NCBI GenBank assembly: GCA_902571005.1
Contig: CACGAG010000009.1
Coordinates: 184 to 64,183, forward strand
Length of the DNA: 64,000 nt
Origin: an uncultured Pelagibacteraceae bacterium
GTDB taxonomy: Bacteria > Pseudomonadota > Alphaproteobacteria > Pelagibacterales > AG-422-B15
Reading direction: 5' to 3'
Shown here: in pieces, positions 33-52,034 of the stretch
Position numbering within the stretch: the stretch's first letter is position 1
Layout: each line of letters starts with the position of its first letter
Translations under genes and position numbers: made by a program
The notes under the pieces: generated by a model
The model's database searches: none
Told to the model about the DNA's origin: nothing
The model's input: only the letters and a program-made list of their open reading frames with translations

Positions 33-1949
<1,917 letters not shown>

Positions 1950-1968
1950 AATGACTTAATTTATTTTC

Positions 1969-2583
1969 TTAATTCAATATATTGTAGATGGGTTTGAAAC
2001 TTTTTCGATGGATAGGGGTAATTCCATGAGACTTCAGAGCCAAAAGGTGCTCTTTTGTTCCGTACCCTGCATTTTTTTCAAATGAATATTCAGGATATTT
2101 GTCAGCAAGATTGGTCATAATCTTATCTCTGTAAACTTTGGCTAGAATTGAAGCTGCAGCAATTGAAATTGATTTACTGTCACCTTTAACAATTGGTTTG
2201 CATTTTAAATCAACTTTAGGCGTATATATTCCATCAATAAGAGACATTGATGGTACTATTTTTAGCGACTCAATAGCTCTTTTCATTGCAAGTAACGAAG
2301 CTTGTAAAATATTTAAATTATCAATTTCTTCTACTGACGCCTCTCCATATGCGTAATGACTGTTTAATCTAATTTTTTCTGCAATTATCTCTCTTTTACT
2401 TTTTGATATTTTTTTTGAATCTCTGATACCTTCAGGAAGGTTATTTTTATTCAAAATTACTGCCGCTGCCACTACTGGTCCCGCTAAAGGACCACGTCCT
2501 ACCTCATCGACACCAGCAACTGGACAATTAAAATTTTTTTCAAAATCCAACAAATTGATTTGACCGTTAAAATTATGACTCAA
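1969..2583 (-). CDS. rnhB: Ribonuclease HII
   Basis: AGVDEVGRGPLAGPVVAAA, DSKK, KGDSKSISIAAASILAKV, GYGTKEH, HRKSF. Confidence 0.97.
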   Translation of the reverse strand: MSHNFNGQINLLDFEKNFNCPVAGVDEVGRGPLAGPVVAAAVILNKNNLPEGIRDSKKISKSKREIIAEKIRLNSHYAYGEASVEEIDNLNILQASLLAMKRAIESLKIVPSMSLIDGIYTPKVDLKCKPIVKGDSKSISIAAASILAKVYRDKIMTNLADKYPEYSFEKNAGYGTKEHLLALKSHGITPIHRKSFKPIYNILN

Positions 2584-3328
2584 CTTTTTTCTTAAGACTT
2601 TTTAAGTCCTCCCACGAATATTTTTTTTGTCCAGGCTGCCTTAATAAAAAAGCAGGGTGAAAAGTGGGTAGGGTGGGATATTGTTTTTGATTAATTTCAA
2701 TATCTACCCATTTACCCCTAATCTTTGTTATTCCTTCAGTATTTCTAATAAGTGCATAAGTCGCTGTTGATCCTAATAGCAATATTGCTTTGGGATTAAT
2801 CAACTCTATGTGTTTCTTAATCATTGGCAGACACATATCTATTTCTTCATCTGTGGGTCGTCTGTTATTAGGAGGTCTCCAAGGTACAATATTTGCAATG
2901 TATACCTTTTCTCGATTAAGGTTTATTGCCTCAAGCATTTTATCTAGAAGTTTACCGCTTCTACCAACAAAGGGTTTTCCTTGAATGTCCTCATCATGGC
3001 CAGGAGCTTCACCAATAAGCATAATTTCTGATTTTGGGTTTCCATCAGAAAACACCATATTCGTCGCACTTTCGTGAAGCTTACATTTGTCATAATTTGC
3101 CATGAAGTCTTTTAATGAATCTAATGATTCTAGTGAGTTGATAGTTTTTTGATCCTCAATCGATGAGTTATTAACAGATATAGAGCTGTCACTAGTTTTT
3201 GATTTCGATGATTTTTTGGCTCCGTAGCGATTTTTTGGCTTATTTCCAATGTTTTCATTGACCCCACTCATCTTTAAGTGGTTGAGCTGCTTCAGAGTGT
3301 TTTGAACTTTTGCATCGGTCATAAACAA
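2573..3328 (-). CDS. Uracil-DNA glycosylase family 4 (SPO1 polymerase-related)
   Basis: IGEAPG, PFVGRSGKLLD, NIVPWRPPNNR, TFHPAFLLRQP motifs. Confidence 0.92.
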   Translation of the reverse strand: MFMTDAKVQNTLKQLNHLKMSGVNENIGNKPKNRYGAKKSSKSKTSDSSISVNNSSIEDQKTINSLESLDSLKDFMANYDKCKLHESATNMVFSDGNPKSEIMLIGEAPGHDEDIQGKPFVGRSGKLLDKMLEAINLNREKVYIANIVPWRPPNNRRPTDEEIDMCLPMIKKHIELINPKAILLLGSTATYALIRNTEGITKIRGKWVDIEINQKQYPTLPTFHPAFLLRQPGQKKYSWEDLKSLKKKVES

Positions 3329-3368
3329 ATTGAATTATAGTACCTATAAACTAAATATATATATAATA

Positions 3369-5015
3369 ATGGATACTATTCAGCAAAGAGAATCAATGGA
3401 GTACGATGTTGTAATCGTGGGCGCAGGTCCTTCAGGCCTTTCAACCGCGATAAAACTCAAACAAATAAACCCAGAAATTAATGTCTGCATTGTAGAGAAA
3501 GCATCTGAGGTTGGCGCTCATATATTAAGTGGAAATGTATTTGAAACAAGAGCTCTTGATGAGCTACTTCCAGATTGGAAAACTATAGACGGCTGTCCTC
3601 TGAAAACAAAAGTCACAAAAGAAAAGTTTTTATTTCTCTTTGAGAAATCTCACTTTACAGTTCCCTCGTTTTTATTACCTCCTGTTCAACACAATAAAGG
3701 AAACTACATCGCTAGCCTTGCGAATATGTGCAGATGGCTCGGACAAATCGCTGAAAACTTAGGAGTTGAAATATATCCTGGTTTTGCAGCTTCTGAAATA
3801 TTGTATGATGAAGATGGAAAAGTAAAAGGCGTGGCCACAAATGACATGGGACTGGACGCAAATAATGAAAAAAAAGATTCCTATGAGCCTGGTATTGAGC
3901 TACACGCAAAAACAACAGTATTTGCTGAGGGGTGTAGAGGTCATTTAGGTAAGCAATTAATAGAGAAGTTTGAACTCGCAAAAAATTCAGACCCACAACA
4001 GTATGGAATTGGTTTGAAAGAAATATGGGAGGTACCTAAAGAAAATCATGATGAAGGCTTAGTCTTTCATTCAACTGGTTGGCCCTTAGATAATAAAACC
4101 TATGGAGGAAGTTTTGTTTACCATGCAGAAAATAATCAAATATTTTTGGGATATGTAGTTGGACTTGATTATAAGAATCCATATTTGTCACCTTTTGAAG
4201 AATTTCAAAGGTTTAAAACACATCCTGCAATAGAAAAAATGTTGAGTGGCGGGAAAAGAGTATCCTACGGTGCCAGAGCATTGATTGAGGGTGGCATACA
4301 AAGTCTGCCTCAGATGTACATGCCGGGCGCATTATTAATAGGCTGTGATGCCGGTACGCTAAATATGCCAAAAATAAAGGGAACTCACACTGCCATGAAA
4401 AGTGGAATGATTGCCGCTGAAGCTATTAATGAATTCCTCTCAGGTAAGTCGAATGATCTATCTTGTTACGAGGCTTTATTCAAAAAGAGTTGGGTTTATA
4501 GCGAATTAAAATCTGCTAGGAATGTTAAACCTTTCTTTACAAGGTTTGGAAATATCCTTGGTATTTTACTTACAGGGATCGATCAGTGGTTATTTATGGG
4601 AAAGCTTCCTTTTACTCTATCGCATAAGCATGCTGATCATGAAACATTAGAAGATGCAAAAGAAGCAAAAAAAATAAATTATCCAAAACCAGATGGCGTT
4701 TTAACTTTTGATAGGGCTAGTTCGGTATTTCTTACTGGAACTTATCATACTGAAAATCAACCTGTTCACCTTAAATTGAAGGATAAAGAATTACCTATCA
4801 GTTATACGCTAGATAAGTTTGATGAGCCCTCTCAAAGGTACTGCCCAGTAGGTGTTTATGAAGTTCATAGAAATGATGATGGTTCAGATCCAAAATTTGT
4901 AATTAATAGTCAGAACTGCATACATTGCAAAACATGCGATATTAAAGAACCGTCACAAAACATAAACTGGGTAACACCAGAGGGTGGCGGTGGCCCAAAA
5001 TATGCAAATATGTAA
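3369..5015 (+). CDS. Electron transfer flavoprotein-ubiquinone oxidoreductase
   Basis: DVVIVGAGPSGL FAD motif, GAHILSG, C-terminal 4Fe-4S CPVGVYE...QNCIHCKTCDIKEPSQNINW; start moved to ATG 3369 (ORF track begins at TTG 3330). Confidence 0.95.
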   Translation: MDTIQQRESMEYDVVIVGAGPSGLSTAIKLKQINPEINVCIVEKASEVGAHILSGNVFETRALDELLPDWKTIDGCPLKTKVTKEKFLFLFEKSHFTVPSFLLPPVQHNKGNYIASLANMCRWLGQIAENLGVEIYPGFAASEILYDEDGKVKGVATNDMGLDANNEKKDSYEPGIELHAKTTVFAEGCRGHLGKQLIEKFELAKNSDPQQYGIGLKEIWEVPKENHDEGLVFHSTGWPLDNKTYGGSFVYHAENNQIFLGYVVGLDYKNPYLSPFEEFQRFKTHPAIEKMLSGGKRVSYGARALIEGGIQSLPQMYMPGALLIGCDAGTLNMPKIKGTHTAMKSGMIAAEAINEFLSGKSNDLSCYEALFKKSWVYSELKSARNVKPFFTRFGNILGILLTGIDQWLFMGKLPFTLSHKHADHETLEDAKEAKKINYPKPDGVLTFDRASSVFLTGTYHTENQPVHLKLKDKELPISYTLDKFDEPSQRYCPVGVYEVHRNDDGSDPKFVINSQNCIHCKTCDIKEPSQNINWVTPEGGGGPKYANM

Positions 5016-5026
5016 AGCATAAGTCT

Positions 5027-6685
5027 ATGCTTATAAGAACAATCATATTTTTACTAACATTTAACATTTCAAGCATTAATCTTTATGCAGCACAATTTAT
5101 TCCGCCTCAGGTGGGCGATTACTTAGTTGCAAAAATTTCTAGTGACTCAAATGACTACAGCACAACTAAGAGATATTATCAAAGGCTGCACAGATCAAAT
5201 CCAAACGATTTACTTGCTTTAGATAGATTGTTGTTGCTTAGTATCCTTGATGGGGATTTGCTTAGTGCAAATAACTACTCTTTTAAACTCGCGAAAGCAG
5301 GTTGCGATAAAAATGTGAATTCATGTTGTATGAATAATCAATCACCACAAGGTCATCTTGTTAATGGGATTTCTTACCTGAACTCTTATAAGCCAGGTTT
5401 TGCTGACCAAAGTTTTGCTAGTATTTGGAGAGGGAATTTATCTGATAGCACGTTTGTAAGACTGCTCAGAGCTTGGGTATGGGCCGATAGTAATACGATA
5501 GATAAAAGTATGGCGCTAATCGATTTAATTTCCACAGGCGAACATCAACACCTAACACTTGTGCATAAAGCTCTAATTTATGACTATGCTGATGAGATTG
5601 AATTAGCGGAAGTTTTTTATGACCAATCTTTATCAGTACAAAGAGATTTATACGTTTTACGTCTATATTATAATTTTCTACACCGAAATAATTTGACTGA
5701 GAAGAAAGATGCTTTTGCAGATGAGTTTTTGTCTTCATATGATGAAGAATTTCAAAATAAATTTTTAACTTCAAATAAAAATAGGATTATTCAAAACCCT
5801 CTTCAAGGAATAGGAGTGGTTTTATTTAATTCACAACTATTGATTGAGGATTTAAATGAAGAACTCGCACATATGTTATATCAACTAGCAATTGATACTT
5901 CTCCTAATTTACATGAGATCAAGTATATATTTGCTTCTTTTCTTAATCAGTTGGAAAATCATGATAAGGCAAGAGAGGTGCTGAGTTATATCCCAAAGAA
6001 GCATTATCTAGGTAATTTTGCTGCAATTCAAATTTCAGATGCATATAGCTACGAGGGCAACAATGATCAAGCAATTCAAAATCTCAATACGTTTGTCGAA
6101 GTTGATGATAGCTTTGAAGCTTACCTTTCACTTGGAAATTATCACCGTTATGAAAAGAATTGGTCTGATGCAATCGATAATTACGATCATGCATTAAAGC
6201 TTGGTAAAAAATTTGATAAAGAAAACATTTGGGAAGTTTACTTTAATATTGGAATTGTTCATGAACGTTCTAAAAATTGGAAGTTAGCTGAAAAAAATTT
6301 AAAAAGATCATTGAAACTATCTGAAGATCAAGCAGATGTTCTCAATTATTTAGGATATTCTTATATCGATATGGATCAAAATATATCCGAGGCTAAAGTT
6401 ATGATAGAACAAGCAATGGAATTGAAACCAAACGATCCATACATAGTTGATAGCCTTGCTTGGTATTATTTTAAAGTTGGTAAGTATAATGAAGCGCTTT
6501 CTTTATTGGAGTTTTCTTTGGATATGATGCCATACGATCCAACTGTAAATGATCATTATGGCGATGTGCTCTGGAAGCTGGGAAATGAACTTGAAGCACG
6601 TTTTTATTGGCAGAAAGCCATAGATTTAGATCAGGAAAATATATTTGAGGATAAAGTTAAAATCAAACTACTTAAAGGAATCTAA
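5027..6685 (+). CDS. Exported tetratricopeptide-repeat protein
   Basis: Signal peptide, C-terminal TPRs (LNYLGYS, DSLAWYYF, DHYGDVLWKLG); usual position upstream of ispE. Confidence 0.85.
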   Translation: MLIRTIIFLLTFNISSINLYAAQFIPPQVGDYLVAKISSDSNDYSTTKRYYQRLHRSNPNDLLALDRLLLLSILDGDLLSANNYSFKLAKAGCDKNVNSCCMNNQSPQGHLVNGISYLNSYKPGFADQSFASIWRGNLSDSTFVRLLRAWVWADSNTIDKSMALIDLISTGEHQHLTLVHKALIYDYADEIELAEVFYDQSLSVQRDLYVLRLYYNFLHRNNLTEKKDAFADEFLSSYDEEFQNKFLTSNKNRIIQNPLQGIGVVLFNSQLLIEDLNEELAHMLYQLAIDTSPNLHEIKYIFASFLNQLENHDKAREVLSYIPKKHYLGNFAAIQISDAYSYEGNNDQAIQNLNTFVEVDDSFEAYLSLGNYHRYEKNWSDAIDNYDHALKLGKKFDKENIWEVYFNIGIVHERSKNWKLAEKNLKRSLKLSEDQADVLNYLGYSYIDMDQNISEAKVMIEQAMELKPNDPYIVDSLAWYYFKVGKYNEALSLLEFSLDMMPYDPTVNDHYGDVLWKLGNELEARFYWQKAIDLDQENIFEDKVKIKLLKGI

Positions 6686-6690
6686 GTACG

Positions 6691-7524
6691 TTGTTGAATA
6701 ACATAAAATCCTACGCAAAAATAAATCTTTTCTTAAATGTAGTAAACAAACTTGATACTGGTTTTCACGAATTAAACTCAGTGTTATCAAGGATTGATCT
6801 TTTTGATGAGATTAGAATAAAAGATGAAAGCTCATTTAGTATCTCATATAGTGGCCCTTTTGGAGATCAAGTAGGATCCAATGATAATGTTTCTAAATTA
6901 TTTAACTATTTAATCGATAAGAATTATTTAAAGCAGAAATCATTTGCTATTCAAGTTGTAAAAAATATACCAGTGGGATCGGGTTTAGGTGGCGGTTCAT
7001 CAAATGTCGCAGAAATAATTAAATATTTAATAAGATCCAATTTGTTAGATAATTCAAGCTCAACTGAGATTGCAAGAGATCTTGGGTCAGACATTGAATT
7101 TTTTATTGATGAGGGATCTGCACTGATTTCTGGAAAAGGGAATGTTGATCAAAGGTTAAAAATCAATTCGGATAAGCATTTTCTAATTGTATTTCCAAAT
7201 GTTCAAAATAGTACTAAGGAAATTTTTAATAAACACTCTAATTTAAGTGGAGAAAAATTCTCATACAATAACGATACTAACTTAGATAGAATTTTAAAAG
7301 GTACATCAAATGAATTGGAAAAAACGGCACTTCTTGCAAATCAAGAAATGAAAAAAATAAGAGAATATTTAGAAAATGATATAAATTGTAAGTATGAACG
7401 AATGACAGGAAGTGGCTCTGCATATTTTACTGTTTATGAAGATAAACAAAAGGCAGAGGAAGCAATACAGAGGATATCTGAAGAACACCCCAATTGGTGG
7501 ACATATTTAACGAGGTTAATATAA
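6691..7524 (+). CDS. ispE: 4-diphosphocytidyl-2-C-methyl-D-erythritol kinase
   Basis: AKINLFL, GFHEL, KNIPVGSGLGGGSSN, LGSD, MTGSGS GHMP kinase motifs; TTG start. Confidence 0.93.
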   Translation: MLNNIKSYAKINLFLNVVNKLDTGFHELNSVLSRIDLFDEIRIKDESSFSISYSGPFGDQVGSNDNVSKLFNYLIDKNYLKQKSFAIQVVKNIPVGSGLGGGSSNVAEIIKYLIRSNLLDNSSSTEIARDLGSDIEFFIDEGSALISGKGNVDQRLKINSDKHFLIVFPNVQNSTKEIFNKHSNLSGEKFSYNNDTNLDRILKGTSNELEKTALLANQEMKKIREYLENDINCKYERMTGSGSAYFTVYEDKQKAEEAIQRISEEHPNWWTYLTRLI

Positions 7525-7567
7525 AGATTGCAAAATCTTTTTCTTAAATTAAATAATTATATAGCGT

Positions 7568-7642
7568 TGGGGCGTGGCCAAGCGGTAAGGCACCGCTTTT
7601 TGGTAGCGGCATTCGGAGGTTCGAATCCTCCCGCCCCAGCCA
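7568..7642 (+). tRNA. tRNA-Gln(UUG)
   Basis: TGGGGCG acceptor pairing with CGCCCCA-GCCA, D arm GCCAAGCGGTAAGGC, anticodon stem CCGCT/AGCGG with TTG, T loop GGTTCGAATCC. Confidence 0.96.
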
Positions 7643-7657
7643 ATTAGGATTAAAAAT

Positions 7658-8209
7658 ATGAGTAATTTTTTAAGTAAGTATAAATCAGTATACGATGTCT
7701 TTTTAGACAACTGGGGCTATCAGAAACATTATGTGGCTTATTTAGAGTCTCTAATGAGACAAGAAACACTATTACCAACACACATTAAAGAGATGATATT
7801 CGCCTATGTCTCAGGATTAAATGGCTGTGGGTACTGCAAGAATATTCATGTTGAAATATCAAAGAAAATTTTAAGAGACAAGAATGACCTAGATTTTATG
7901 AATGATATTGAACAATCACAAATAGAAGCTAAGTATAAGCCAATTCTAAAATTATCTCACAAAGTAAATGAAGACATTCGCTCAATTACTGAAGAAGATG
8001 TAACTGCTATATTAGAATATGGCTTTGATGAAAAAGTTATATCCGAAATTATCTCTATTTGTTCTGCTGCACAATTTATGAATACCACAGTTGTTGCTCA
8101 TCAAATAAAGCCTCTTGATCAAGTTCAAAATGTTGCATCAGCGAAAATGATGATTGAGAAAGGTTACGATGGGCTTGCTGAATTTATGTTAAGAAGACGT
8201 AATAAATAA
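7658..8209 (+). CDS. AhpD/carboxymuconolactone decarboxylase-like peroxidase-related protein
   Basis: EMIFAYVSGLNGCGYCKNIH CxxC motif typical of the AhpD-like family. Confidence 0.8.
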   Translation: MSNFLSKYKSVYDVFLDNWGYQKHYVAYLESLMRQETLLPTHIKEMIFAYVSGLNGCGYCKNIHVEISKKILRDKNDLDFMNDIEQSQIEAKYKPILKLSHKVNEDIRSITEEDVTAILEYGFDEKVISEIISICSAAQFMNTTVVAHQIKPLDQVQNVASAKMMIEKGYDGLAEFMLRRRNK

Positions 8210-8210
8210 T

Positions 8211-8585
8211 TTAAAAAAATTTGAATAAACTTAGCCCAAGATAAAAAGCTATAACCGTAAATGTGAATGTCACAAACAGATATAAAAGTGAGGCTAAAAT
8301 TTCTCCGTTGTTGAATAATTGATAAAAATCCAAATTAAAAGTTGAAAAGGTCGTGAAACCTCCGAGGAAACCAATAGTTAAAAACATTTTTATATTTTGA
8401 GATACATTAACTTTGTCTACAAAATAACTAACGACTAATCCCATCAAAAATGCCCCAAGAACATTGACAACTATTGTTCCAAATGGAAATGAACTTAAAA
8501 ATAATCGATCAGTCTGTTCACTGATAAGAAAACGCAATAAAGCTCCGACGCCTCCACCTAAAAAAATGGATAACAAAATACTCAT
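8211..8585 (-). CDS. crcB: Fluoride channel CrcB/Fluc
   Basis: GGGVGALLRF, FPFGTIVVN, GFLGGFTTFSTF signature; 4 TM segments. Confidence 0.95.
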   Translation of the reverse strand: MSILLSIFLGGGVGALLRFLISEQTDRLFLSSFPFGTIVVNVLGAFLMGLVVSYFVDKVNVSQNIKMFLTIGFLGGFTTFSTFNLDFYQLFNNGEILASLLYLFVTFTFTVIAFYLGLSLFKFF

Positions 8586-46877: not shown

Positions 46878-48893
46878 ATGAAGAAAAGAGGTAGAAAAAA
46901 AAAGCAGGTCAAAGCTGAAGTTGAAAGCTTACAGTCGCAATCAAATGATCAAGATGGTCCTGTCTTAGATCTAGAAAAATCAATAATAAAAAAACTTATT
47001 AAGCAAGGTAAAAAAGACGGTTATCTCACCCACGAATTAATTAAAAAATCTTTTCCTGAAGACAAATTTACCTCTGAACAGATTGAACAATATACAACGA
47101 AGCTGTCTCAAGTTGGATTTGATATTATTGATTCTGACGATTCAGATAATGATGAAGATAAAGATGACGAGTCACCTTCAGTAAAAGCAGGGACAGAAAA
47201 AACAGATGATCCAGTTAAATTATATCTCAGAGAAATGGGAACAGTTGATCTACTATCTCGTGAGGGCGAAATTGCGATAGCTAAACGAATTGAAGCTGGC
47301 CAAGAAGCAATGATTTCTGGACTCTGTGAAAGTCCACTCACGCTGCAGGCGATACTTGATTGGAGAGATGATATAATTGCTGAAAAAATAACATTAAGAG
47401 AAGTTATTGATCTTGAGTCACTGTTTGAGGAGTCCCCAAATAAAAAGGAGCTGAGCAAAAAAATAAAAGAAGCAAAAAAAAGAAAAGAACAAGAAGAAAA
47501 AGAAGAAATTAGAAAAAGAAAAGAGGCTGAAAAAAAATCTTCTACTTATGGTGATGATACGGAGCCAATGATTGAAACTACCTCAGATCAAGTAATTGAG
47601 GAATACGAAGATGCTGATGATGAATTAAATGTTTCAATTGCAATAATGGAAGAAGAGCTCAAGCCTCAGATCCTTGAAACATTTAAAAAATTAAATAAAA
47701 GTTTTAAAAAGCTACAAAAGCTCCAAAAGGATAAAATTGCATTTCAGGAAAAGGGTAAAGAATTTCCTTCAAGATCTGAAAAAAGCTATCAGACTTCAAA
47801 GGCTGTTGTTGTTGAATTGATTAAAGGCTTGCAAATAAATACAAATAAAATTGAAGAATTAATTAACAAGTTATACATAATTAATAAAGGAATTGTATCT
47901 CTGGAAGGTAAATTATTAAGACTTGCAGTCCAATATAAAATTTCAAGAGACGAATTCTTGGATAAATACATCGGAAATGAGAATAATCCTTATTGGTTAA
48001 GAAAGATTACCAGACTTTCTGGATGGGAAAAATTTGTCAAAGAGGAAAAAAATAATATTAAAAATATTATGAACGAGGTAAGAGCTGCTGCAAGTAATAT
48101 AGGTTTAACACTTAATGAGTTTAAAAGAATTGTAAGCAATGTTCAAAAAGGTGAGAGAGAATCAAGTATTGCTAAAAAAGAAATGATTGAAGCCAACCTA
48201 AGATTAGTAATTTCTATCGCAAAAAAATATACGAATAGAGGTCTACAATTTTTAGACTTAATACAAGAGGGTAATATCGGCTTAATGAAAGCGGTAGATA
48301 AATTTGAATATAGACGAGGTTACAAATTTTCAACTTATGCAACTTGGTGGATCAGGCAGGCAATTACTAGATCAATAGCGGACCAAGCTAGAACTATTCG
48401 TATACCAGTACATATGATAGAAACAATCAATAAGATTGTAAGAACACAAAGGTTGCTTTTAAATGAAATAGGAAGGGAGCCAACTCCTGAAGAAATATCT
48501 ACAAAATTAAATATGCCTCTTGAGAAAGTCAGAAAAGTTTTAAAAATTGCAAAAGAGCCTGTAAGCCTTGAAACTCCAGTTGGCGATGAAGAAGACAGTC
48601 ACTTAGGTGACTTTATACAAGATGAGAATGCCGTTATTCCAATCGATGCAGCGATTCACTCTAATTTGAGGCAAACTACTACCAAAATATTATCGTCATT
48701 AACACCTCGTGAGGAAAGAGTATTGAGAATGAGATTTGGTATTGGTATGAATTCTGACCATACTCTTGAAGAAGTTGGACAACAATTTTCAGTTACGAGG
48801 GAGAGAATTAGACAGATTGAAGCAAAAGCGCTGAGAAAACTAAAGCATCCAACTCGAGCAAAGCTTTTAAAAAGCTTTTTAGATAAAAACTAG
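46878..48893 (+). CDS. rpoD: RNA polymerase primary sigma factor RpoD
   Basis: [42 protein letters not shown], region 4 [28 protein letters not shown]. Confidence 0.98.
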
Positions 48894-48933: not shown

Positions 48934-49010
48934 GGGCCCATAGCTCAGTTGGTTAGAGCCCTCCGCTCATAACGGAGTTGTCCTAGGTTCGAGTCCTAGT
49001 GGGCCCACCA
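48934..49010 (+). tRNA. tRNA with CAU anticodon, most likely tRNA-Ile2 (lysidine type)
   Basis: GGGCCCA/TGGGCCC acceptor + ACCA, D arm GCTCAGTTGGTTAGAGC, anticodon stem CTCCG/CGGAG with loop CTCATAA, T arm CTAGG-TTCGAGT-CCTAG. Ile2 rather than Met is inferred from the C4-G69 acceptor stem and the post-rpoD location. Confidence 0.92.
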
Positions 49011-49068
49011 AGTAATACAATGACTTACGAGTCATAATTCCCATTTCTACCTTTCGAAATCAAGCTGC

Positions 49069-49086
49069 GCAGTCATTGTGCAGTCA
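49069..49086 (+). repeat. Paired direct repeat GCAGTCA-TTGT-GCAGTCA (left arm of cassette 1)
   Basis: Copies start at 49069 and 49080, 11-bp period. Confidence 0.8.
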
Positions 49087-49196
49087 TTTTAGTGAAGTTT
49101 TTATAAAATAGTGCTTATAAGGTCTTTAGTTACTATCAATTAAAATAAAACAATTTGACCTCTTTGATAATATAAATTCTTAAGTATTATTTTAAT

Positions 49197-49982
49197 ATGA
49201 GAATTTTTATAATGCTAATTTTTGCTTTAACTTTAGTCAGTTGCTCTAATCCAGAATTAGATCTTTACTATCAGAAAGAAGAAAGCATCCGGGAAGTTAC
49301 GAGAGTGCTTATAGATACTCCGGAGCACAAAGAATATCCCACAATCTTTTGTAATCAATTTGCTGCCCTTCAACTTGCAAAAGATCATTGTGACAATCTC
49401 GGTTATGATGTATTTAAAACAAATCGTGAGCCGAAAGATAGTAATACTAATTTAACCCATATTGGAAAAATTGAATTGTATTGTGGTATTCCTCACCCCA
49501 ATGCAGACATTGATAAACCTAGTGAATTAGAAAGAAGAAAAAATCTCTGTGAATTAGATATAGCTGGTAAAAAAATGGTCGAAGAATGGAAGAAAAGGGA
49601 TGCAGACGCAAGAATAAATTCTTGTAAAGAGATAGGTTTTGAGGAAAACACTTTAGATATGTCACATTGTTTACTTAAAATTATAGAATTAGAAACAATT
49701 TTAAAATTGAATAACTCTAAGAATACAAAAATTGTAATTCCAAATGAACAAAAGGGTAGAGGAAATCAGTTTAACTGGGCAGCTTTTATAACGGGACTTA
49801 ATCAATTAAATAATTCTCTGTATGGAAGCACTAACACTACATCCTCTACAAGCACAACATGTTATAGCACTGGCGAATATATAGAAGGAATGAACAAAGT
49901 CTGCCAATACAGTTGTGTTGGCAGCGCGCATGCAATCACTGTGGGTGCAGCACAAATATGTCCTATTAGTGTTAAACGTTAG
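49197..49982 (+). CDS. Hypothetical Cys-rich lipoprotein (cassette 1 cargo)
   Basis: Hydrophobic signal with lipobox LVSC (Cys16), 11 Cys in total, Thr/Ser linker, C-terminal 4-Cys module; no family recognised. Confidence 0.75.
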   Translation: MRIFIMLIFALTLVSCSNPELDLYYQKEESIREVTRVLIDTPEHKEYPTIFCNQFAALQLAKDHCDNLGYDVFKTNREPKDSNTNLTHIGKIELYCGIPHPNADIDKPSELERRKNLCELDIAGKKMVEEWKKRDADARINSCKEIGFEENTLDMSHCLLKIIELETILKLNNSKNTKIVIPNEQKGRGNQFNWAAFITGLNQLNNSLYGSTNTTSSTSTTCYSTGEYIEGMNKVCQYSCVGSAHAITVGAAQICPISVKR

Positions 49983-50010
49983 CAATACGCACAAATTTTA
50001 AACAATTATT

Positions 50011-50028
50011 GCAGTCGTTACGCAGTCA
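50011..50028 (+). repeat. Paired direct repeat GCAGTCG-TTAC-GCAGTCA (right arm of cassette 1)
   Basis: Copies start at 50011 and 50022; followed by TTT like the left arm. Confidence 0.8.
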
Positions 50029-50128
50029 TTTGGTTAGAAATTTTCTAAATTGTTTCTAAGTTGTATTATAAAAAATAGGTAATAATAACAATTATAAGCG
50101 TAGCTATTGCTTAATGGATGACTTACCA

Positions 50129-50175
50129 CGCTCATAACGGAGTTGTCCTAGGTTCGAGTCCTAGTGGGCCCACCA
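50129..50175 (+). repeat. tRNA(CAU) 3'-half direct repeat, copy 2 (att site)
   Basis: CGCTCATAACGGAGTTGTCCTAGGTTCGAGTCCTAGTGGGCCCACCA is identical to 48964-49010 (47 bp). Confidence 0.97.
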
Positions 50176-50222
50176 CGTTTTTCAACGTTTATTCATTCAT
50201 ACACTTTCTGAAAATTGTTCCT

Positions 50223-50240
50223 GCAGGCCATCTGCAGTCA
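50223..50240 (+). repeat. Paired direct repeat GCAGGCC-ATCT-GCAGTCA (left arm of cassette 2)
   Basis: Copies start at 50223 and 50234, 11-bp period. Confidence 0.8.
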
Positions 50241-50279
50241 ATGACTTTAATAATTGTGGTTTGTAGGATATAATTTTGT

Positions 50280-50909
50280 ATGAGATTAATTGCTGTAACA
50301 TTTTTTGTAATTATGTTTATGCAACCTCTCGCAAATGCAAGTGCCAGTTTATCAACAGATGGTTTTTACGATTTTCCAACACGAACGTGTACTGCAATTG
50401 GTGGAGATCAAGATGAACTAGACACAATATGTAGAAACATACCTAGAGATTCATTATGTAACGATAAGTGGTGGAAACAAAAAAACTGTTATTTATTAGC
50501 TGCTGAAACAAATGCGTTTAGATATGATGTAAACGGAGATCTTCTAGGCATAGATTTATGGAGAATTGATGATCATATTGGATTCGAGGAGACGCTAATA
50601 ATACTTCCTATATTTTTAATTATCATCAGTATTGTGGGCTTTTTTATAATAAGAAAGTTATTAAGAGTATTTTTCAAAAAATCAAGTGAACTATATCAAT
50701 CTAGCTCATTACCGTTAAAAAATAAATTGGCAAAAAGAAAAGTAGAAACTGAATTACGTGATTTAGATGAAGTAAAGCCTGCTGAACAGAATTATCAGAA
50801 GGCATCATTTAAAGACAATACTGAGGAAATAGAACAAATAAATAAACTTGAAAGAAAAATTAAAATTAAAGAGCTTGAAAAAAAACTTAAGTCAATTGAT
50901 GATGAATAG
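50280..50909 (+). CDS. Hypothetical bitopic membrane protein (cassette 2 cargo)
   Basis: Signal peptide ending ANA, 4-Cys exported domain, TM TLIILPIFLIIISIVGFFII, charged coiled-coil-like cytoplasmic tail. Confidence 0.75.
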   Translation: MRLIAVTFFVIMFMQPLANASASLSTDGFYDFPTRTCTAIGGDQDELDTICRNIPRDSLCNDKWWKQKNCYLLAAETNAFRYDVNGDLLGIDLWRIDDHIGFEETLIILPIFLIIISIVGFFIIRKLLRVFFKKSSELYQSSSLPLKNKLAKRKVETELRDLDEVKPAEQNYQKASFKDNTEEIEQINKLERKIKIKELEKKLKSIDDE

Positions 50910-50996
50910 TTTCAAAAATAGTTAATCGTGATTCAGGATTCAAGTTTGTATGATTCTAAATGGGTTCTAATAAATATTCCCCTGAACATTACTCTC

Positions 50997-51015
50997 GCAG
51001 GCCATCTGCAGGCCA
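50997..51015 (+). repeat. Paired direct repeat GCAGGCCA-TCT-GCAGGCCA (right arm of cassette 2)
   Basis: Copies start at 50997 and 51008; 15 bp (GCAGGCCATCTGCAG) identical to the left arm. Confidence 0.82.
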
Positions 51016-51085
51016 AAGCTCTTAAAACTAAACATTTACAGACTAAAATTTCTTACATACCCTAGCTTAAAGGTTAAGGCTCACA

Positions 51086-51131
51086 GCTCATAACGGAGTT
51101 GTCCTAGGTTCGAGTCCTAGTGGGCCCACCA
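51086..51131 (+). repeat. tRNA(CAU) 3'-half direct repeat, copy 3 (outermost attR)
   Basis: GCTCATAACGGAGTTGTCCTAGGTTCGAGTCCTAGTGGGCCCACCA is identical to 48965-49010 (46 bp). Confidence 0.97.
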
Positions 51132-51185: not shown

Positions 51186-52034
51186 ATGTCTTTAAATGTA
51201 GTCGCCTCAGAACAGGCCTGTGGTGCAGAAATAACAGGAATTGACCTAAAAAAAGATTTATCTGAGAGTCAAATTTCTGAAATAAGAAATCATTGGCTTA
51301 AACATCACATACTGAGTTTTCCCAACCAAGCTTTATCTGACGATGATCTAGAACGTTTCACTCTTTATTTTGGATCATTTGGAGATGACCCATTTATTGC
51401 CTCAATACCAGGCAGAGAAAATATTATTGCAGTTAAAAGAACGGCAGATGAAAAGGTACCAATTTTTGCAGACAATTGGCATACTGATTGGAGTTTTCAA
51501 AAAAATCCACCAGCAGGTACGTGTTTATTTGGAAAAATAATTCCATCAGAAGGGGGTGATACGTTGTTTGCAAACCAACATTTAGCATTAGAGTGCATGC
51601 CCTTCGAATTAAGGAAAAAGTTGGAGGGGAAAAAAGCAATTCACTCAGCACTTGTACCTTACTCACCAGGGGGTGGTTACGGTGATAAGGATAGAGAAAT
51701 GGGAAGAAGCATGGATATAAGAGCGTCAGACGATGCTTTTGCTCAACAAATACATCCTATTATTAAAAGTCATCCTGAAACAAATAAAGAGGGTATTTAT
51801 GGTACAGTTGGTTATATCATTGGCATTGATGGTATGGATAACCAGGAAGCTATGAAATTACTTATGGAATTGAGCGCATGGCAGTGTAAAGAAGAATTTG
51901 TTTACCGTCACAAATGGAAAAAGGATATGTTAATTATGTGGGACAATAGAAGTGTTCTACACCGAGCAACTGGCGGTTATGAAGGGCAAGAACGTCTTTT
52001 ACATCGAACAACCATTGCAGCTTATGGCTTATAA
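51186..52034 (+). CDS. TauD/TfdA-family alpha-ketoglutarate-dependent dioxygenase
   Basis: WHTDWS (HxD), GGDTLFAN, WDNRSVLHRA; start reassigned to ATG 51186 because the ORF-track start at 51120 lies inside the tRNA fragment. Confidence 0.92.
   Translation: MSLNVVASEQACGAEITGIDLKKDLSESQISEIRNHWLKHHILSFPNQALSDDDLERFTLYFGSFGDDPFIASIPGRENIIAVKRTADEKVPIFADNWHTDWSFQKNPPAGTCLFGKIIPSEGGDTLFANQHLALECMPFELRKKLEGKKAIHSALVPYSPGGGYGDKDREMGRSMDIRASDDAFAQQIHPIIKSHPETNKEGIYGTVGYIIGIDGMDNQEAMKLLMELSAWQCKEEFVYRHKWKKDMLIMWDNRSVLHRATGGYEGQERLLHRTTIAAYGL

What the first reader, a model, noticed from the sequence alone, without database searches (positions are those of the whole stretch)
49069..51015. Four paired 11-bp-period GCAG(T/G)C boxes bracket the cassettes, with a cassette-specific variant
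Seen: GCAGTCATTGTGCAGTCATTT (49069), GCAGTCGTTACGCAGTCATTT (50011), GCAGGCCATCTGCAGTCA (50223) and GCAGGCCATCTGCAGGCCA (50997). All are in the same orientation with exactly 11 bp between copies, and are GC-rich in AT-rich spacers. Within a cassette the left and right arms resemble each other more than the other cassette's arms (15 bp identical in cassette 2). One box lies 59 nt after the preceding CCA in both units (49069 and 50234). No such pair follows the third tRNA fragment. Known: tyrosine integrases bind tandem arm-type direct repeats on both sides of attP. Inference: these are intact P/P' arms, so the cassettes may still be mobilisable, and the two came from related but distinct integrase specificities.
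Basis: partly seen in the sequence, partly recalled or inferred. Interest (0 to 1): 0.8.

Follow-up and report, generated by a model that had tools for sequence, protein, structure and literature searches.

The report
Integrase docking boxes on orphan cassettes
The four paired GCAG(T/G)C boxes are most likely the docking ("arm-type") sites for an integrase, kept at both ends of two tiny single-gene cassettes inserted behind a tRNA gene of a SAR11-type ocean bacterium that has no such integrase itself. This gives a concrete, testable handle on how these "mobile-element-poor" bacteria swap single genes.

Summary
Observation confirmed. GCAGKC-N5-GCAGKC occurs four times in the window (0 expected). 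These are its only occurrences in the 1.26-Mb genome. The pairs bracket two cassettes (1165 and 956 bp) bounded by 46-nt repeats of the tRNA(CAT) 3' part. Genomes with an empty site show the insertion is precise.

In the same genus, 23 cassettes sit at tRNA(CAT) and tRNA-Lys(UUU). Most carry 11-bp-period box pairs at fixed places: 46-59 nt after CCA, and about 100 or 130 nt before the next tRNA fragment. The surrounding att scaffold is conserved. The box sequence falls into at least four classes, and left and right boxes match within a cassette (0/5000 shuffles).

Integrase-bearing 6-10-kb relatives in Pelagibacterales have the same layout: a box pair 27-50 nt upstream of int, and same-class boxes on the far arm. 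Box type tracks the integrase N-terminal domain, which models as a three-strand-plus-helix fold typical of arm binding.

So the arm-site reading is supported (about 0.8). Caveats:
- This genome has only XerC and XerD, and none of the 47 genus genomes has an integrase of this family, so any mobilisation must be in trans.
- Pair 3 mixes both box variants, so "two distinct specificities" is not established.
- Protein binding is untested.

It is a new variant of known kinds: lambda-type att arms, CIME-like non-autonomous elements and additive tRNA islands.

The parts
48934..49010 (+). Intact tRNA(CAT) gene, the integration target. Its last 46 nt (48965-49010, from the anticodon loop to CCA) are the first copy of the repeat.
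   Evidence: ARAGORN. Repeat family D1. One of three CAT tRNAs in the genome.
49020..49035 (+). Inverted repeat ATGACT-TACG-AGTCAT in the left arm of cassette 1. It is part of a left-arm scaffold shared by cassettes of different box classes.
   Evidence: Sequence. Alignment of nine left arms.
49052..49059 (+). Palindrome TTTCGAAA, conserved about 10 nt upstream of the left box pair in most cassettes. The autonomous G007 element has CCTTTCCGAAATCAC here. Candidate site for an accessory or bending protein (inferred).
49069..49089 (+). Box pair 1 (GCAGTCATTGTGCAGTCATTT), left (P'-like) arm of cassette 1, starting 59 nt after CCA.
49197..49982 (+). Cassette 1 cargo: 261-aa predicted lipoprotein (lipobox LVSC), no Pfam family. 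Its C-terminal Cys-rich motif is shared with the cargo of another class-i cassette (G046).
50011..50031 (+). Box pair 2 (GCAGTCGTTACGCAGTCATTT), right (P-like) arm of cassette 1, starting 119 nt before the tRNA fragment.
50130..50175 (+). tRNA 3' fragment 1 (46 nt identical to 48965-49010). Junction between cassettes 1 and 2.
50223..50241 (+). Box pair 3 (GCAGGCCATCTGCAGTCAA), left arm of cassette 2. It is a hybrid of the two box variants and starts 48 nt after CCA.
50247..50274 (+). Promoter-like site TTAATA-16-TATAAT (10/12) between pair 3 and the cargo gene. Consensus match only.
50280..50909 (+). Cassette 2 cargo: 209-aa protein with a signal peptide, an exported Cys-containing domain, one TM helix and a charged tail. 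No Pfam family above cut-off.
50997..51015 (+). Box pair 4 (GCAGGCCATCTGCAGGCCA), right arm of cassette 2, starting 89 nt before the tRNA fragment. This is the same position as the right pair in most related cassettes (tabulated as 98-102 nt before the GGAGTTG core motif).
51016..51085 (+). Conserved right-arm scaffold (CTCTTAAAACTAAACATTTACAGACTAAAATTT...). It ends in a degenerate copy of the tRNA 5' half (CCCTAGCTTAAAGGTTAAGGCTCACA) and is shared by cassettes of classes i-iv.
51086..51131 (+). tRNA 3' fragment 2 (46 nt). End of the insertion; the native flank follows.
51186..52034 (+). TauD-family dioxygenase gene, the native chromosomal flank. It directly follows the tRNA in empty-site relatives.
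   Evidence: Pfam PF02668, E=6.7e-53..

Best explanation
The four box pairs are arm-type binding sites for the N-terminal domain of a lambda-type (heterobivalent) tyrosine integrase. They survive on both arms of two integrase-less single-gene cassettes that integrated one after the other into the anticodon-loop-to-3'-end segment of tRNA(CAT).

Each cassette, once circularised, would carry a complete attP-like site of about 200-245 bp. Its order would be: right box pair, conserved scaffold with a degenerate tRNA 5' half, 46-nt tRNA core, conserved left scaffold, left box pair.

Proposed mechanism (inferred). An integrase of the family found in 6-10-kb Pelagibacterales elements is supplied in trans. 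It binds two boxes per arm on one face of the helix (11-bp period). Its catalytic and core-binding domains bind the tRNA core. Scaffold bending bridges arm and core, and the enzyme recombines the 46-nt repeats to excise or insert the cassette.

Shown here: the sequence architecture, its uniqueness in the genome, its conservation and co-variation in relatives, the precise insertion, and the absence of a cognate integrase in this genome. Inferred: protein binding, catalysis and present-day mobility.
For: (1) The pairs occur only here in the genome and never in shuffles.

(2) In the same genus, 23 cassettes of 0.16-1.55 kb between successive tRNA core repeats lie at tRNA(CAT) and tRNA-Lys(UUU). 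Most carry 11-bp-period pairs starting +46 to +59 after CCA. The right pair starts 98-102 nt (13 of 23) or 128-137 nt before the GGAGTTG core motif.

(3) Box sequence falls into classes (GCAGTCA, GCAGGCC, GCGGGAT, GTCGTCA). Left and right boxes match within a cassette: mean identity 0.66 versus 0.52 for shuffled pairings, 0/5000.

(4) The boxes are the variable part of an otherwise conserved scaffold. Between classes, identity is 71% in the scaffold and 40% in the box window, on both arms.

(5) An autonomous 6.6-kb element at tRNA-Lys in the same family (G007) has the same layout. After the tRNA come 56 nt including CCTTTCCGAAA, then the pair TGACGTCCATATGACGTCC, then a 336-aa integrase starting 13 nt later. 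An HTH_17 protein and an AAA_25 primase/helicase-like protein follow. Three TGACGT boxes sit about 105 nt before the tRNA fragment.

(6) All 30 homologous integrase genes fetched from Pelagibacterales have a direct-repeat pair (period 11, or 12 in one subgroup) 27-50 nt upstream of the start codon. Four of the six extended loci have boxes of the same class near the distal tRNA repeat: a pair in three, a single exact box in G087. In the other two no right-arm boxes were seen.

(7) In G356, an integrase-bearing element is followed directly by a 1.4-kb integrase-less cassette with the same TGACACA boxes in the same 1+2 right-arm layout.

(8) Box similarity correlates with Int N-terminal identity (Mantel r=0.37, 0/5000). 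The partial correlation given the catalytic domain is r=0.22, 2/5000.

(9) The N-terminal 70 aa model at pLDDT 84 as three strands plus a helix. Sub-threshold Pfam Arm-DNA-bind_4 hits have E=0.002-0.004.

(10) Cassettes with reverse-oriented cargo keep the int ribosome-binding-site fossil AGAAAGGAAAAA right after the left pair.

(11) Cassettes are 96-99.5% identical between genomes whose adjacent rpoD is 80-92% identical. This indicates recent horizontal transfer.
Against: No integrase with GCAGTCA or GCAGGCC boxes was found in the family, the sampled order genomes, the GTDB genome contigs, IMG/VR or JGI metagenome contigs.

The own genome has only XerD- and XerC-like recombinases, no serine recombinase and no Int remnant.

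The arm-binding fold is not confirmed statistically. The Foldseek best E is 1.5, although AP2 domains and the HPI-integrase arm-binding domain 3jtz are among the top hits. The Pfam hits are below cut-off.

The Int/box correlation is confounded by shared descent of whole elements. An element-encoded excisionase would co-vary in the same way. The window's two cassettes lack the int RBS fossil. No binding or recombination data exist.
Confidence: 0.8

Rival explanations
1. The boxes are binding sites of another element-encoded DNA-binding protein, not of the integrase N-domain. Candidates are an excisionase/recombination directionality factor or a repressor, such as the HTH_17 protein of the autonomous elements. 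In that case the boxes direct or regulate recombination or int expression.
For: Autonomous relatives encode a 70-aa HTH_17 protein. Excisionases commonly bind tandem direct repeats (established knowledge for lambda Xis). The left pair overlaps the likely int promoter/5'UTR region 27-50 nt upstream of int, as operator sites would. Element-level co-inheritance would give the same box/Int correlation.
Against: The boxes lie on both arms at fixed distances from the core. Known RDF sites usually lie on one arm only. The partial correlation with the Int N-terminus stays positive after controlling for the catalytic domain. The N-domain models as the fold used for arm binding. In KplE1, P' arm-type sites overlap the intS promoter in the same tRNA-arm-int arrangement (PMC2951348).
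Confidence: 0.09
2. The box pairs are themselves crossover points or junction tags at which cargo modules are exchanged. That would be a second-level recombination site, or simply microhomology used by homologous recombination, rather than protein docking sites for tRNA-level integration.
For: Module boundaries coincide with the pairs. The window's cassette 1 left scaffold is nearly identical to that of G016 up to the pair, where the class switches. Related YadA-like cargo (84-91% identical over its 3' half) carrying class i or class iv boxes sits in tRNA(CAT)-type and tRNA-Lys-type scaffolds. G025 has a 193-bp 'empty' unit with a single pair, as if the cargo had been deleted between the left and right pairs.
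Against: This does not explain why the pairs sit next to int and on the far arm of autonomous elements. It does not explain why they track the Int N-terminus. Left and right pairs keep distinct, independently conserved flavours: for example left ...ATCTG... against right ...AATATGTCGTACTT in class iv. Junctions at the pairs are expected anyway if the boxes are the only sequence shared by elements of one class.
Confidence: 0.05
3. The boxes are iterons of a replication origin used by the excised circle.
For: They are short direct repeats at helical periodicity. Autonomous relatives encode an AAA_25 primase/helicase-like protein. Long GCAGTCA arrays that look like iterons exist in unrelated viral and metagenome contigs.
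Against: There are only two boxes per site. The boxes are split between the two ends of the integrated element, at fixed distance from the att core and abutting int rather than the replication gene. The cassettes have no replication gene.
Confidence: 0.03
4. The boxes are chance similarity or a generic signal, such as a tRNA terminator or a promoter element.
For: Pair 1 is called as a weak terminator-like hairpin.
Against: One terminator-like site was found against 1.0 expected in shuffles, and other box classes cannot form that hairpin. The motif is absent from the rest of the genome and from 0 of 100 shuffles. It is position-conserved in relatives.
Confidence: 0.01

Closest known systems
Lambda-type attP with arm-type sites (P1/P2, P'1-P'3) bound by the N-terminal domain of a heterobivalent tyrosine integrase. 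The closest layout is KplE1/CPS-53 at tRNA argW, where P' arm sites lie between the tRNA and intS and overlap its promoter (PMC2951348).
   Same: Tandem direct repeats at about one helical turn lie on both arms, tens to about 130 bp from a core inside a tRNA 3' part. The reconstructed attP spans about 200-245 bp. In autonomous relatives the pair next to the tRNA abuts int. From my own knowledge, the lambda arm consensus (C/A)AGTCACTAT resembles GCAGTCAT.
   Different: Here the sites stand on 1-kb units with one cargo gene and no int, xis or any mobility gene. The same scaffold carries at least four interchangeable box classes within one genus. Binding is not shown.
CIMEs (cis-mobilizable elements) and site-specific accretion of integrated elements (reviewed in PMC5704250; ICEberg 2.0, PMC6323972).
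   Same: Non-autonomous elements flanked by functional-looking att sites lie in tandem with other elements at one att site. They are presumed to depend on an integrase supplied by a related element. One order relative (G356) shows such an autonomous-plus-cassette tandem.
   Different: CIMEs derive from ICEs/IMEs of Firmicutes, are larger and move by conjugation. These are about 1-kb single-gene units in a streamlined marine alphaproteobacterium. No resident helper exists in the genus.
Additive flexible genomic islands and tRNA-repeat gene cassettes in streamlined plankton. Examples: SAR11 gMED islands with partial tRNA repeats and no canonical mobile elements (PMC11796062), and Ca. Methylopumilus fGI-2 with recurring tRNA-Lys 3' repeats (PMC10872708).
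   Same: A tRNA-anchored, strain-variable array of cassettes is delimited by repeats of the tRNA 3' end. There is no integrase in the island, and the cargo is mostly envelope or surface related.
   Different: Those papers, as far as I could search them, report the tRNA repeats only. They do not report paired arm boxes, box classes or the link to a specific integrase family.
Tycheposons of Prochlorococcus (bioRxiv 10.1101/2020.12.28.424599) and Pelagibacter-associated VEIME phage satellites (PMC9618062).
   Same: The autonomous relatives found here (int + HTH + primase/helicase, in one case a terminase-small-subunit-like gene, 6-10 kb, at tRNA genes) fit that general kind. Tycheposon islands also hold partial tRNAs and degenerate remnants.
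   Different: The window holds no hallmark gene at all. Membership of the relatives in either named group was not tested (no phylogeny with tycheposon or VEIME integrases).
Integron gene-cassette arrays.
   Same: An array of small, mostly single-gene cassettes, each with its own recombination site and with the recombinase acting in trans on the cassette.
   Different: There are no attC-type sites at the cassette borders (the repeated unit is a 46-nt tRNA part, seen by inspection) and no IntI/attI/Pc platform. The recombination site is a tRNA segment with duplex arm sites, and the cassettes appear to carry their own promoter-like sites.

Membership tests
Lambda-type (arm-site-dependent) tyrosine-integrase att site | Identity segment (core/overlap) shared by attL, attR and attB | tested here: met
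   A 46-nt identical tRNA 3' part is present three times. The empty site in relatives aligns with 0-1 gaps across the junction.
Lambda-type (arm-site-dependent) tyrosine-integrase att site | Arm-type repeats, distinct from the core sequence, on both arms at conserved distances | tested here: met
   Pairs start at +59/+48 after CCA and 119/89 nt before the fragment. The positions are conserved in 23 related cassettes and in four of six extended autonomous elements.
Lambda-type (arm-site-dependent) tyrosine-integrase att site | Cognate integrase with an N-terminal arm-binding domain | tested here: inconclusive
   None in this genome or genus. Homologous elements elsewhere have an Int whose N-terminus models as b-b-b-a at pLDDT 84. 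Pfam Arm-DNA-bind_4 is below cut-off (17-18 bits versus 22.3). Foldseek has no significant hit, with AP2 domains and 3jtz among the top hits.
Lambda-type (arm-site-dependent) tyrosine-integrase att site | Integrase N-domain physically binds the arm repeats | not testable with these tools
   Only indirect evidence: box type correlates with the Int N-terminus.
Lambda-type (arm-site-dependent) tyrosine-integrase att site | Accessory bending-protein or RDF sites between core and arms | not tested
   Conserved TTTCGAAA(TCAA) and TTTACAGAATAAAATTT scaffold motifs are candidates. No model was applied.
CIME-like non-autonomous integrated element | att sites at both ends but no integrase, excisionase or transfer genes | tested here: met
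   Each cassette holds one cargo ORF without a recombinase domain. Genome-wide there are only XerC and XerD.
CIME-like non-autonomous integrated element | Mobilisation by the integrase of a related autonomous element | not testable with these tools
   Supported indirectly by the G356 autonomous-plus-cassette tandem with one box class and by the transfer signature.
Additive flexible genomic island at a tRNA | tRNA-adjacent, delimited by recurring tRNA 3' repeats, content variable among close relatives | tested here: met
   zero to three cassettes with different cargo at the same tRNA(CAT) and tRNA-Lys sites in the genus.
Integron | IntI integrase with attI and attC-type cassette sites | tested here: not met
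   The only PF00589 matches score best as XerD/XerC and far below the integron-integrase cut-offs. By inspection, the cassette borders are tRNA fragments, not attC-type sites. No attC model was run.
Tycheposon / VEIME satellite | Hallmark genes (deep-branching tyrosine recombinase, replication module, sometimes packaging genes) within the element | tested here: not met
   None in the window's cassettes. Relatives G007 and G356 carry int + AAA_25 primase/helicase-like protein. Their placement among tycheposon or VEIME integrases was not tested.

The most novel reading that the evidence does not exclude
The SAR11 clade containing this genome (AG-422-B15-type SAGs) may run a distributed, integron-like cassette economy. 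A conserved tRNA-mimicking attP scaffold would carry a swappable two-box 'address code' on each arm. Single-gene cargo cassettes, mostly surface proteins and envelope-modifying enzymes, would have no recombinase of their own. Rare, transient satellite-type elements would capture, excise and pass them between species, provided their integrase N-domain matches the code. Several orthogonal codes would then share the same two tRNA landing sites. The integrase would be absent from essentially all sampled cells of the genus.
Probability: 0.3. Interest if true: 0.8.

Novelty: new variant of a known kind. Interest (0 to 1): 0.6.

Why it matters
SAR11 genomes are described as lacking canonical mobile elements. 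Yet their islands hold strain-specific gene cassettes next to tRNA genes, and how these arrive is open (PMC11796062).

This locus and its relatives give the cassettes a defined anatomy. Each has a complete, position-conserved att site with class-specific arm boxes, plus a candidate enzyme family in related 6-10-kb elements. That turns the question into bench-testable predictions about which integrase moves which cassette.

It would also offer a natural set of orthogonal arm-site/integrase pairs on one scaffold. The cargo (secreted YadA-like proteins, lipoproteins, methyltransferases) suggests the system diversifies the cell surface, which is relevant to phage-host dynamics in the ocean.

Tried and rejected
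Searches for a cognate integrase:
- Exact tRNA(CAT) core in IMG/VR gave 0 hits.
- The search for related loci with the G007 Int in IMG/VR found no relative.
- GCAGTCA-N4-GCAGTCA in IMG/VR gave more than 119 hits. They are unrelated: many coding, some phage iteron or arm-like arrays, none SAR11-like.
- GCAGGCC pairs in IMG/VR gave no AT-rich hit.
- Class iii and iv patterns in IMG/VR hit only unrelated phages.
- The TTTCRAAA + class i pattern in GTDB genome contigs returned only the three cassettes already known. These contigs carry SAG names AG-422-B15, AG-894-I07 and AG-453-G19.
- Class i + RBS in JGI metagenome contigs returned one more integrase-less tRNA-Lys cassette (L274) and nothing with int.

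Integrase N-domain structure:
- Single-sequence AlphaFold of the full Int was poor (pLDDT 38).
- PDB sequence searches found nothing for the N-domain.
- Foldseek was not significant.

Other checks:
- The terminator reading of pair 1 was rejected.
- The G017 GCAGGCC pair lies inside a NeuB-like gene, with no Rfam hit nearby, and is a chance match.
- The extra integrases of the family (G018, G003, G005, G042) show no such tRNA core repeat or box pair nearby; the one tRNA found (tRNA-Gly in the G042 locus) has no boxes beside it.
Full report
**1. What is there**

The window comes from a 1.26-Mb, 33% GC, 23-contig genome. Its close relatives carry SAG names such as 'Pelagibacteraceae bacterium AG-422-B15'. 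It is therefore a SAR11-type single-cell or draft genome.

Downstream of rpoD (46878-48893) lies a tRNA with anticodon CAT (48934-49010). Its last 46 nt, from the anticodon loop to CCA, recur identically at 50130-50175 and 51086-51131. These repeats delimit two units of 1165 and 956 bp.

- Unit 1 holds one ORF, a 261-aa lipoprotein-like protein.
- Unit 2 holds one ORF, a 209-aa exported single-pass membrane protein.
- Neither ORF has a Pfam family above cut-off.
- After the third tRNA copy comes a TauD-family gene.

In two relatives, G055 and G056, the tRNA is followed directly by that gene. The window's joined flanks align to them with 0-1 gaps, at 91.3% identity across the junction. So 49011-51131 is a precise two-step insertion.

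**2. The observation**

GCAGKC-N5-GCAGKC matches at 49069, 50011, 50223 and 50997, all on the + strand. None is expected in 100 shuffles. The same four are the only matches in the whole genome, even with relaxed spacing or a free fifth base. The single hexamer occurs 493 times.

Each unit has one pair near its left end (+59 and +48 after CCA). Each has one pair near its right end (119 and 89 nt before the next tRNA fragment).
- the 15 identical bases in cassette 2;
- higher left-right similarity within a cassette than between cassettes;
- no pair after the third fragment.

The background rate is low. In 340 Pelagibacteraceae genomes there are 5 matches and 1 reversed-pattern control match, with no tRNA in the 1.5 kb either side of any of the five matches.

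**3. Relatives show a system, not a one-off**

In the window's family (60 genomes), three further matches lie 47 nt after a tRNA-Lys(UUU) gene or fragment. A fourth lies inside a NeuB-like gene and is chance.

I searched the family for the shared 3' part of the two tRNAs and fetched the loci. This gave 23 cassettes of 0.16-1.55 kb between successive core repeats, at tRNA(CAT) and tRNA-Lys in the genus.

Most of these cassettes have an 11-bp-period pair starting +46 to +59 after CCA. Most also have a second pair starting 98-102 nt (13 of 23) or 128-137 nt before the GGAGTTG core motif. The box sequence differs by class:
- GTGCAGTCAT (class i: window cassette 1, G014, G020, G046);
- CTGCAGGCCA (class ii: window cassette 2 only);
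- GTGCGGGAT (class iii);
- GGTCGTCAT / GTCGTGAAT (class iv).

Left and right boxes match within a cassette. Mean identity is 0.66, against 0.52 for shuffled pairings, with 0 of 5000 shuffles reaching it. Relatedness among cassettes inflates this test.

The sequences around the boxes form a conserved scaffold. On the left it is AATGACTTA.GTCAT...CTTTCGAAA. On the right it is TCTTAAAACT...TTTACAGAATAAAATTTGTTACATA, followed by a degenerate tRNA 5' half. Between classes the scaffold is 71% identical and the box window only 40%, on both arms. The boxes therefore behave as an exchangeable code at a fixed place in a common att scaffold.

One genome (G025) has a 193-bp unit with one pair and no cargo. 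That is an attP-only unit.

**4. Link to an integrase**

Almost all 60 family genomes have exactly two PF00589 genes. In the window's genome they score as XerD- and XerC-like. The genome has no serine recombinase. A six-frame search with a profile of the relevant integrases finds only the two Xer genes.

One family member of another genus (G007) carries a 6.6-kb element at tRNA-Lys with this order:
- the tRNA, then 56 nt including CCTTTCCGAAATCAC;
- the pair TGACGTCCATATGACGTCCAAA;
- a 336-aa tyrosine integrase starting 13 nt later;
- small ORFs including an HTH_17 protein;
- a 627-aa AAA_25 primase/helicase-like protein;
- three TGACGT boxes;
- about 105 nt, then the tRNA-Lys fragment.

Its integrase has 26-41% identical homologues in 31 of 340 sampled Pelagibacteraceae genomes and in none of the 47 genomes of the window's genus. 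All 30 fetched int genes have a direct-repeat pair (period 11; 12 in one subgroup; sometimes three boxes) 27-50 nt upstream of the start codon. In most loci a tRNA gene or tRNA fragment is visible just upstream of the pair (Met, Arg, Lys and other tRNAs).

I extended six of these loci. Four have boxes of the same class near the distal tRNA repeat: a pair in three (G088, G103, G356) and a single exact box in G087. In the other two (G078, G252) no right-arm boxes were seen.

In G356, a 5.7-kb element is followed directly by a 1.4-kb integrase-less cassette. The element carries int, a primase-like protein and a terminase-small-subunit-like protein. The cassette has the same TGACACA boxes in the same right-arm layout, one distal box plus a pair. 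This is an autonomous/non-autonomous pair side by side.

Cassettes of the window's genus with reverse-oriented cargo keep the int ribosome-binding-site fossil (…GTCGTCATTAGAAAGGAAAAAAC|TTA…) exactly where int starts in G007.

Box type tracks the integrase N-terminus. For example, K-L-x-S-G-K-x-Q-V goes with GAGCACA, and N-K-Y-Q-V-Q-V-R goes with TGTCACA. Mantel r is 0.37 (0/5000). The partial r given catalytic-domain identity is 0.22 (2/5000). Shared descent of whole elements limits what this proves.

The N-terminal 70 residues, folded with a 23-sequence alignment, give a confident model (pLDDT 84). It has three strands followed by a helix, the topology of arm-binding/AP2-like domains. Other support for that fold is weak:
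- Pfam Arm-DNA-bind_4 hits are below cut-off.
- Foldseek has no significant hit. AP2 domains (rank 1) and the arm-binding domain of the HPI integrase (3jtz, rmsd 2.7 Å over 39 columns) are among the top hits.

**5. Mobility**

Some cassettes are much more alike than their chromosomal surroundings. A thioesterase cassette is 96-99.5% identical between genomes whose adjacent rpoD is 82-92% identical. A methyltransferase cassette is 98.4% identical where rpoD is 79.6% identical. Related YadA-like cargo occurs in both tRNA(CAT)-type and tRNA-Lys-type scaffolds.

This argues for recent horizontal movement. It does not say whether site-specific or homologous recombination did it.

**6. Interpretation**

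The best reading (about 0.8) is that the pairs are arm-type integrase sites on both arms of two integrase-less cassettes. Circularised, cassette 1 would carry an attP-like site of about 245 bp (50011-50175 plus 49011-49089). Cassette 2 would carry one of about 200 bp. From my own knowledge, lambda attP is about 240 bp.

The tRNA-arm-int arrangement of the autonomous relatives matches KplE1, where P' arm sites lie between tRNA argW and intS and overlap its promoter (PMC2951348).

Rivals:
- An excisionase or repressor site (about 0.09), disfavoured by the two-arm placement.
- Junction tags for cargo exchange (about 0.05). Module boundaries do coincide with the pairs, but that is expected if the boxes are the only sequence shared within a class.
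- Iterons (about 0.03).
- Chance or a terminator (about 0.01).

The tRNA-Lys pair in G058 is the same kind of hybrid (GCAGTCATCTGGCAGGCC).

**7. What is known**

tRNA-repeat 'gene cassettes' without mobile-element genes are reported for SAR11 islands (PMC11796062). Recurring tRNA-Lys repeats are reported for an additive island of Methylopumilus (PMC10872708). Integrase-bearing tRNA elements of ocean bacteria are known as tycheposons (10.1101/2020.12.28.424599) and as VEIME satellites, some of them in Pelagibacter (PMC9618062). Non-autonomous att-flanked elements are known as CIMEs (PMC5704250).

I found no paper describing the paired arm boxes, their classes on a conserved scaffold, or their link to this integrase family (searches; papers read).

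Earlier notes of this scan describe the same kind of cassettes at other SAR11 tRNAs. They agree with my reading but are not independent evidence.

I rate this a new variant of known kinds, interest 0.6.

Noticed in passing
L052 (G025:C11), about 3211-3403 in the oriented locus: A 193-bp 'empty' cassette: tRNA(CAT), left scaffold, one GTGCGGGATCTGTGCGGGAT pair, right scaffold, tRNA fragment, with no cargo. It looks like a bare attP, or like a cargo deletion between the left and right pairs.
   Followed up: partly
L299 (G356:C2) 1443-8509: An integrase + primase + terminase-small-subunit-like 5.7-kb element at initiator-type tRNA-Met is followed directly by a 1.4-kb integrase-less cassette. The cassette has the same TGACACA box class and the same right-arm layout. 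A further left-arm-like pair follows the last fragment.
   Followed up: partly
L011, L012, L051, L056, L058, L060, L061 (cassettes at tRNA-Lys and tRNA(CAT) in genus relatives): The commonest cargo is a reverse-oriented secreted protein of 311-431 aa. It has a hypervariable N-terminal half and a conserved C-terminal half (GENSLVT...SVALGAAFASLP...coiled coil) that I judge YadA-like by eye. There is no Pfam hit. The int RBS fossil AGAAAGGAAAAA sits right after its stop codon.
   Followed up: partly
L055 / L063 (G034, G049) cassette at tRNA(CAT): A 749-bp cassette encoding a 227-aa protein that I judged by eye to be an FkbM-type methyltransferase (no family search was run). It has no recognisable box pairs and a different left arm. 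It is 98.4% identical between genomes whose rpoD is 79.6% identical. A second element type may use the same tRNA.
   Followed up: no
L013 (G058:C2), pair 47 nt after tRNA-Lys: A hybrid pair GCAGTCATCTGGCAGGCC (one box of each window variant) in a fourth genus of the family. No tRNA fragment or integrase was found within the 19 kb fetched.
   Followed up: partly
L056 (G035:C1) second tRNA copy: Here identity to the real tRNA extends further 5' (GGTTAGAGCCCTCCGCTCATAAC) than in other fragments. This suggests a different crossover point, or gene conversion between the tRNA and the element's degenerate tRNA 5' half.
   Followed up: no
window 48934-49010: ARAGORN calls this tRNA-Met(CAT). The genome has three CAT tRNAs: one initiator-like on C10, one on C4, and this one. 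This one may therefore be tRNA-Ile2 (lysidine) rather than elongator Met.
   Followed up: partly
L302-L310 and L166, L197, L200, L278, L286, L289 (IMG/VR and metagenome contigs): GTGCGGGAT-type tandem boxes sit next to integrase genes in unrelated high-GC phage contigs. GCAGTCA repeats at 11-bp period form pairs or long arrays in other phage or plasmid-like contigs. In L197 one of two pairs sits about 45 nt upstream of a tRNA gene. Similar short motifs seem to recur as repeat sites in distant elements.
   Followed up: no
L123, L128-L131, L133 (Pelagibacteraceae int loci): One subgroup of the integrase family has its upstream boxes at a 12-bp rather than an 11-bp period.
   Followed up: no
L274 (Ga0208390_1038525, 1300-bp metagenome contig): An environmental copy of the class-i cassette at tRNA-Lys with the YadA-like cargo. 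This cassette type therefore also occurs in an environmental metagenome assembly.
   Followed up: no
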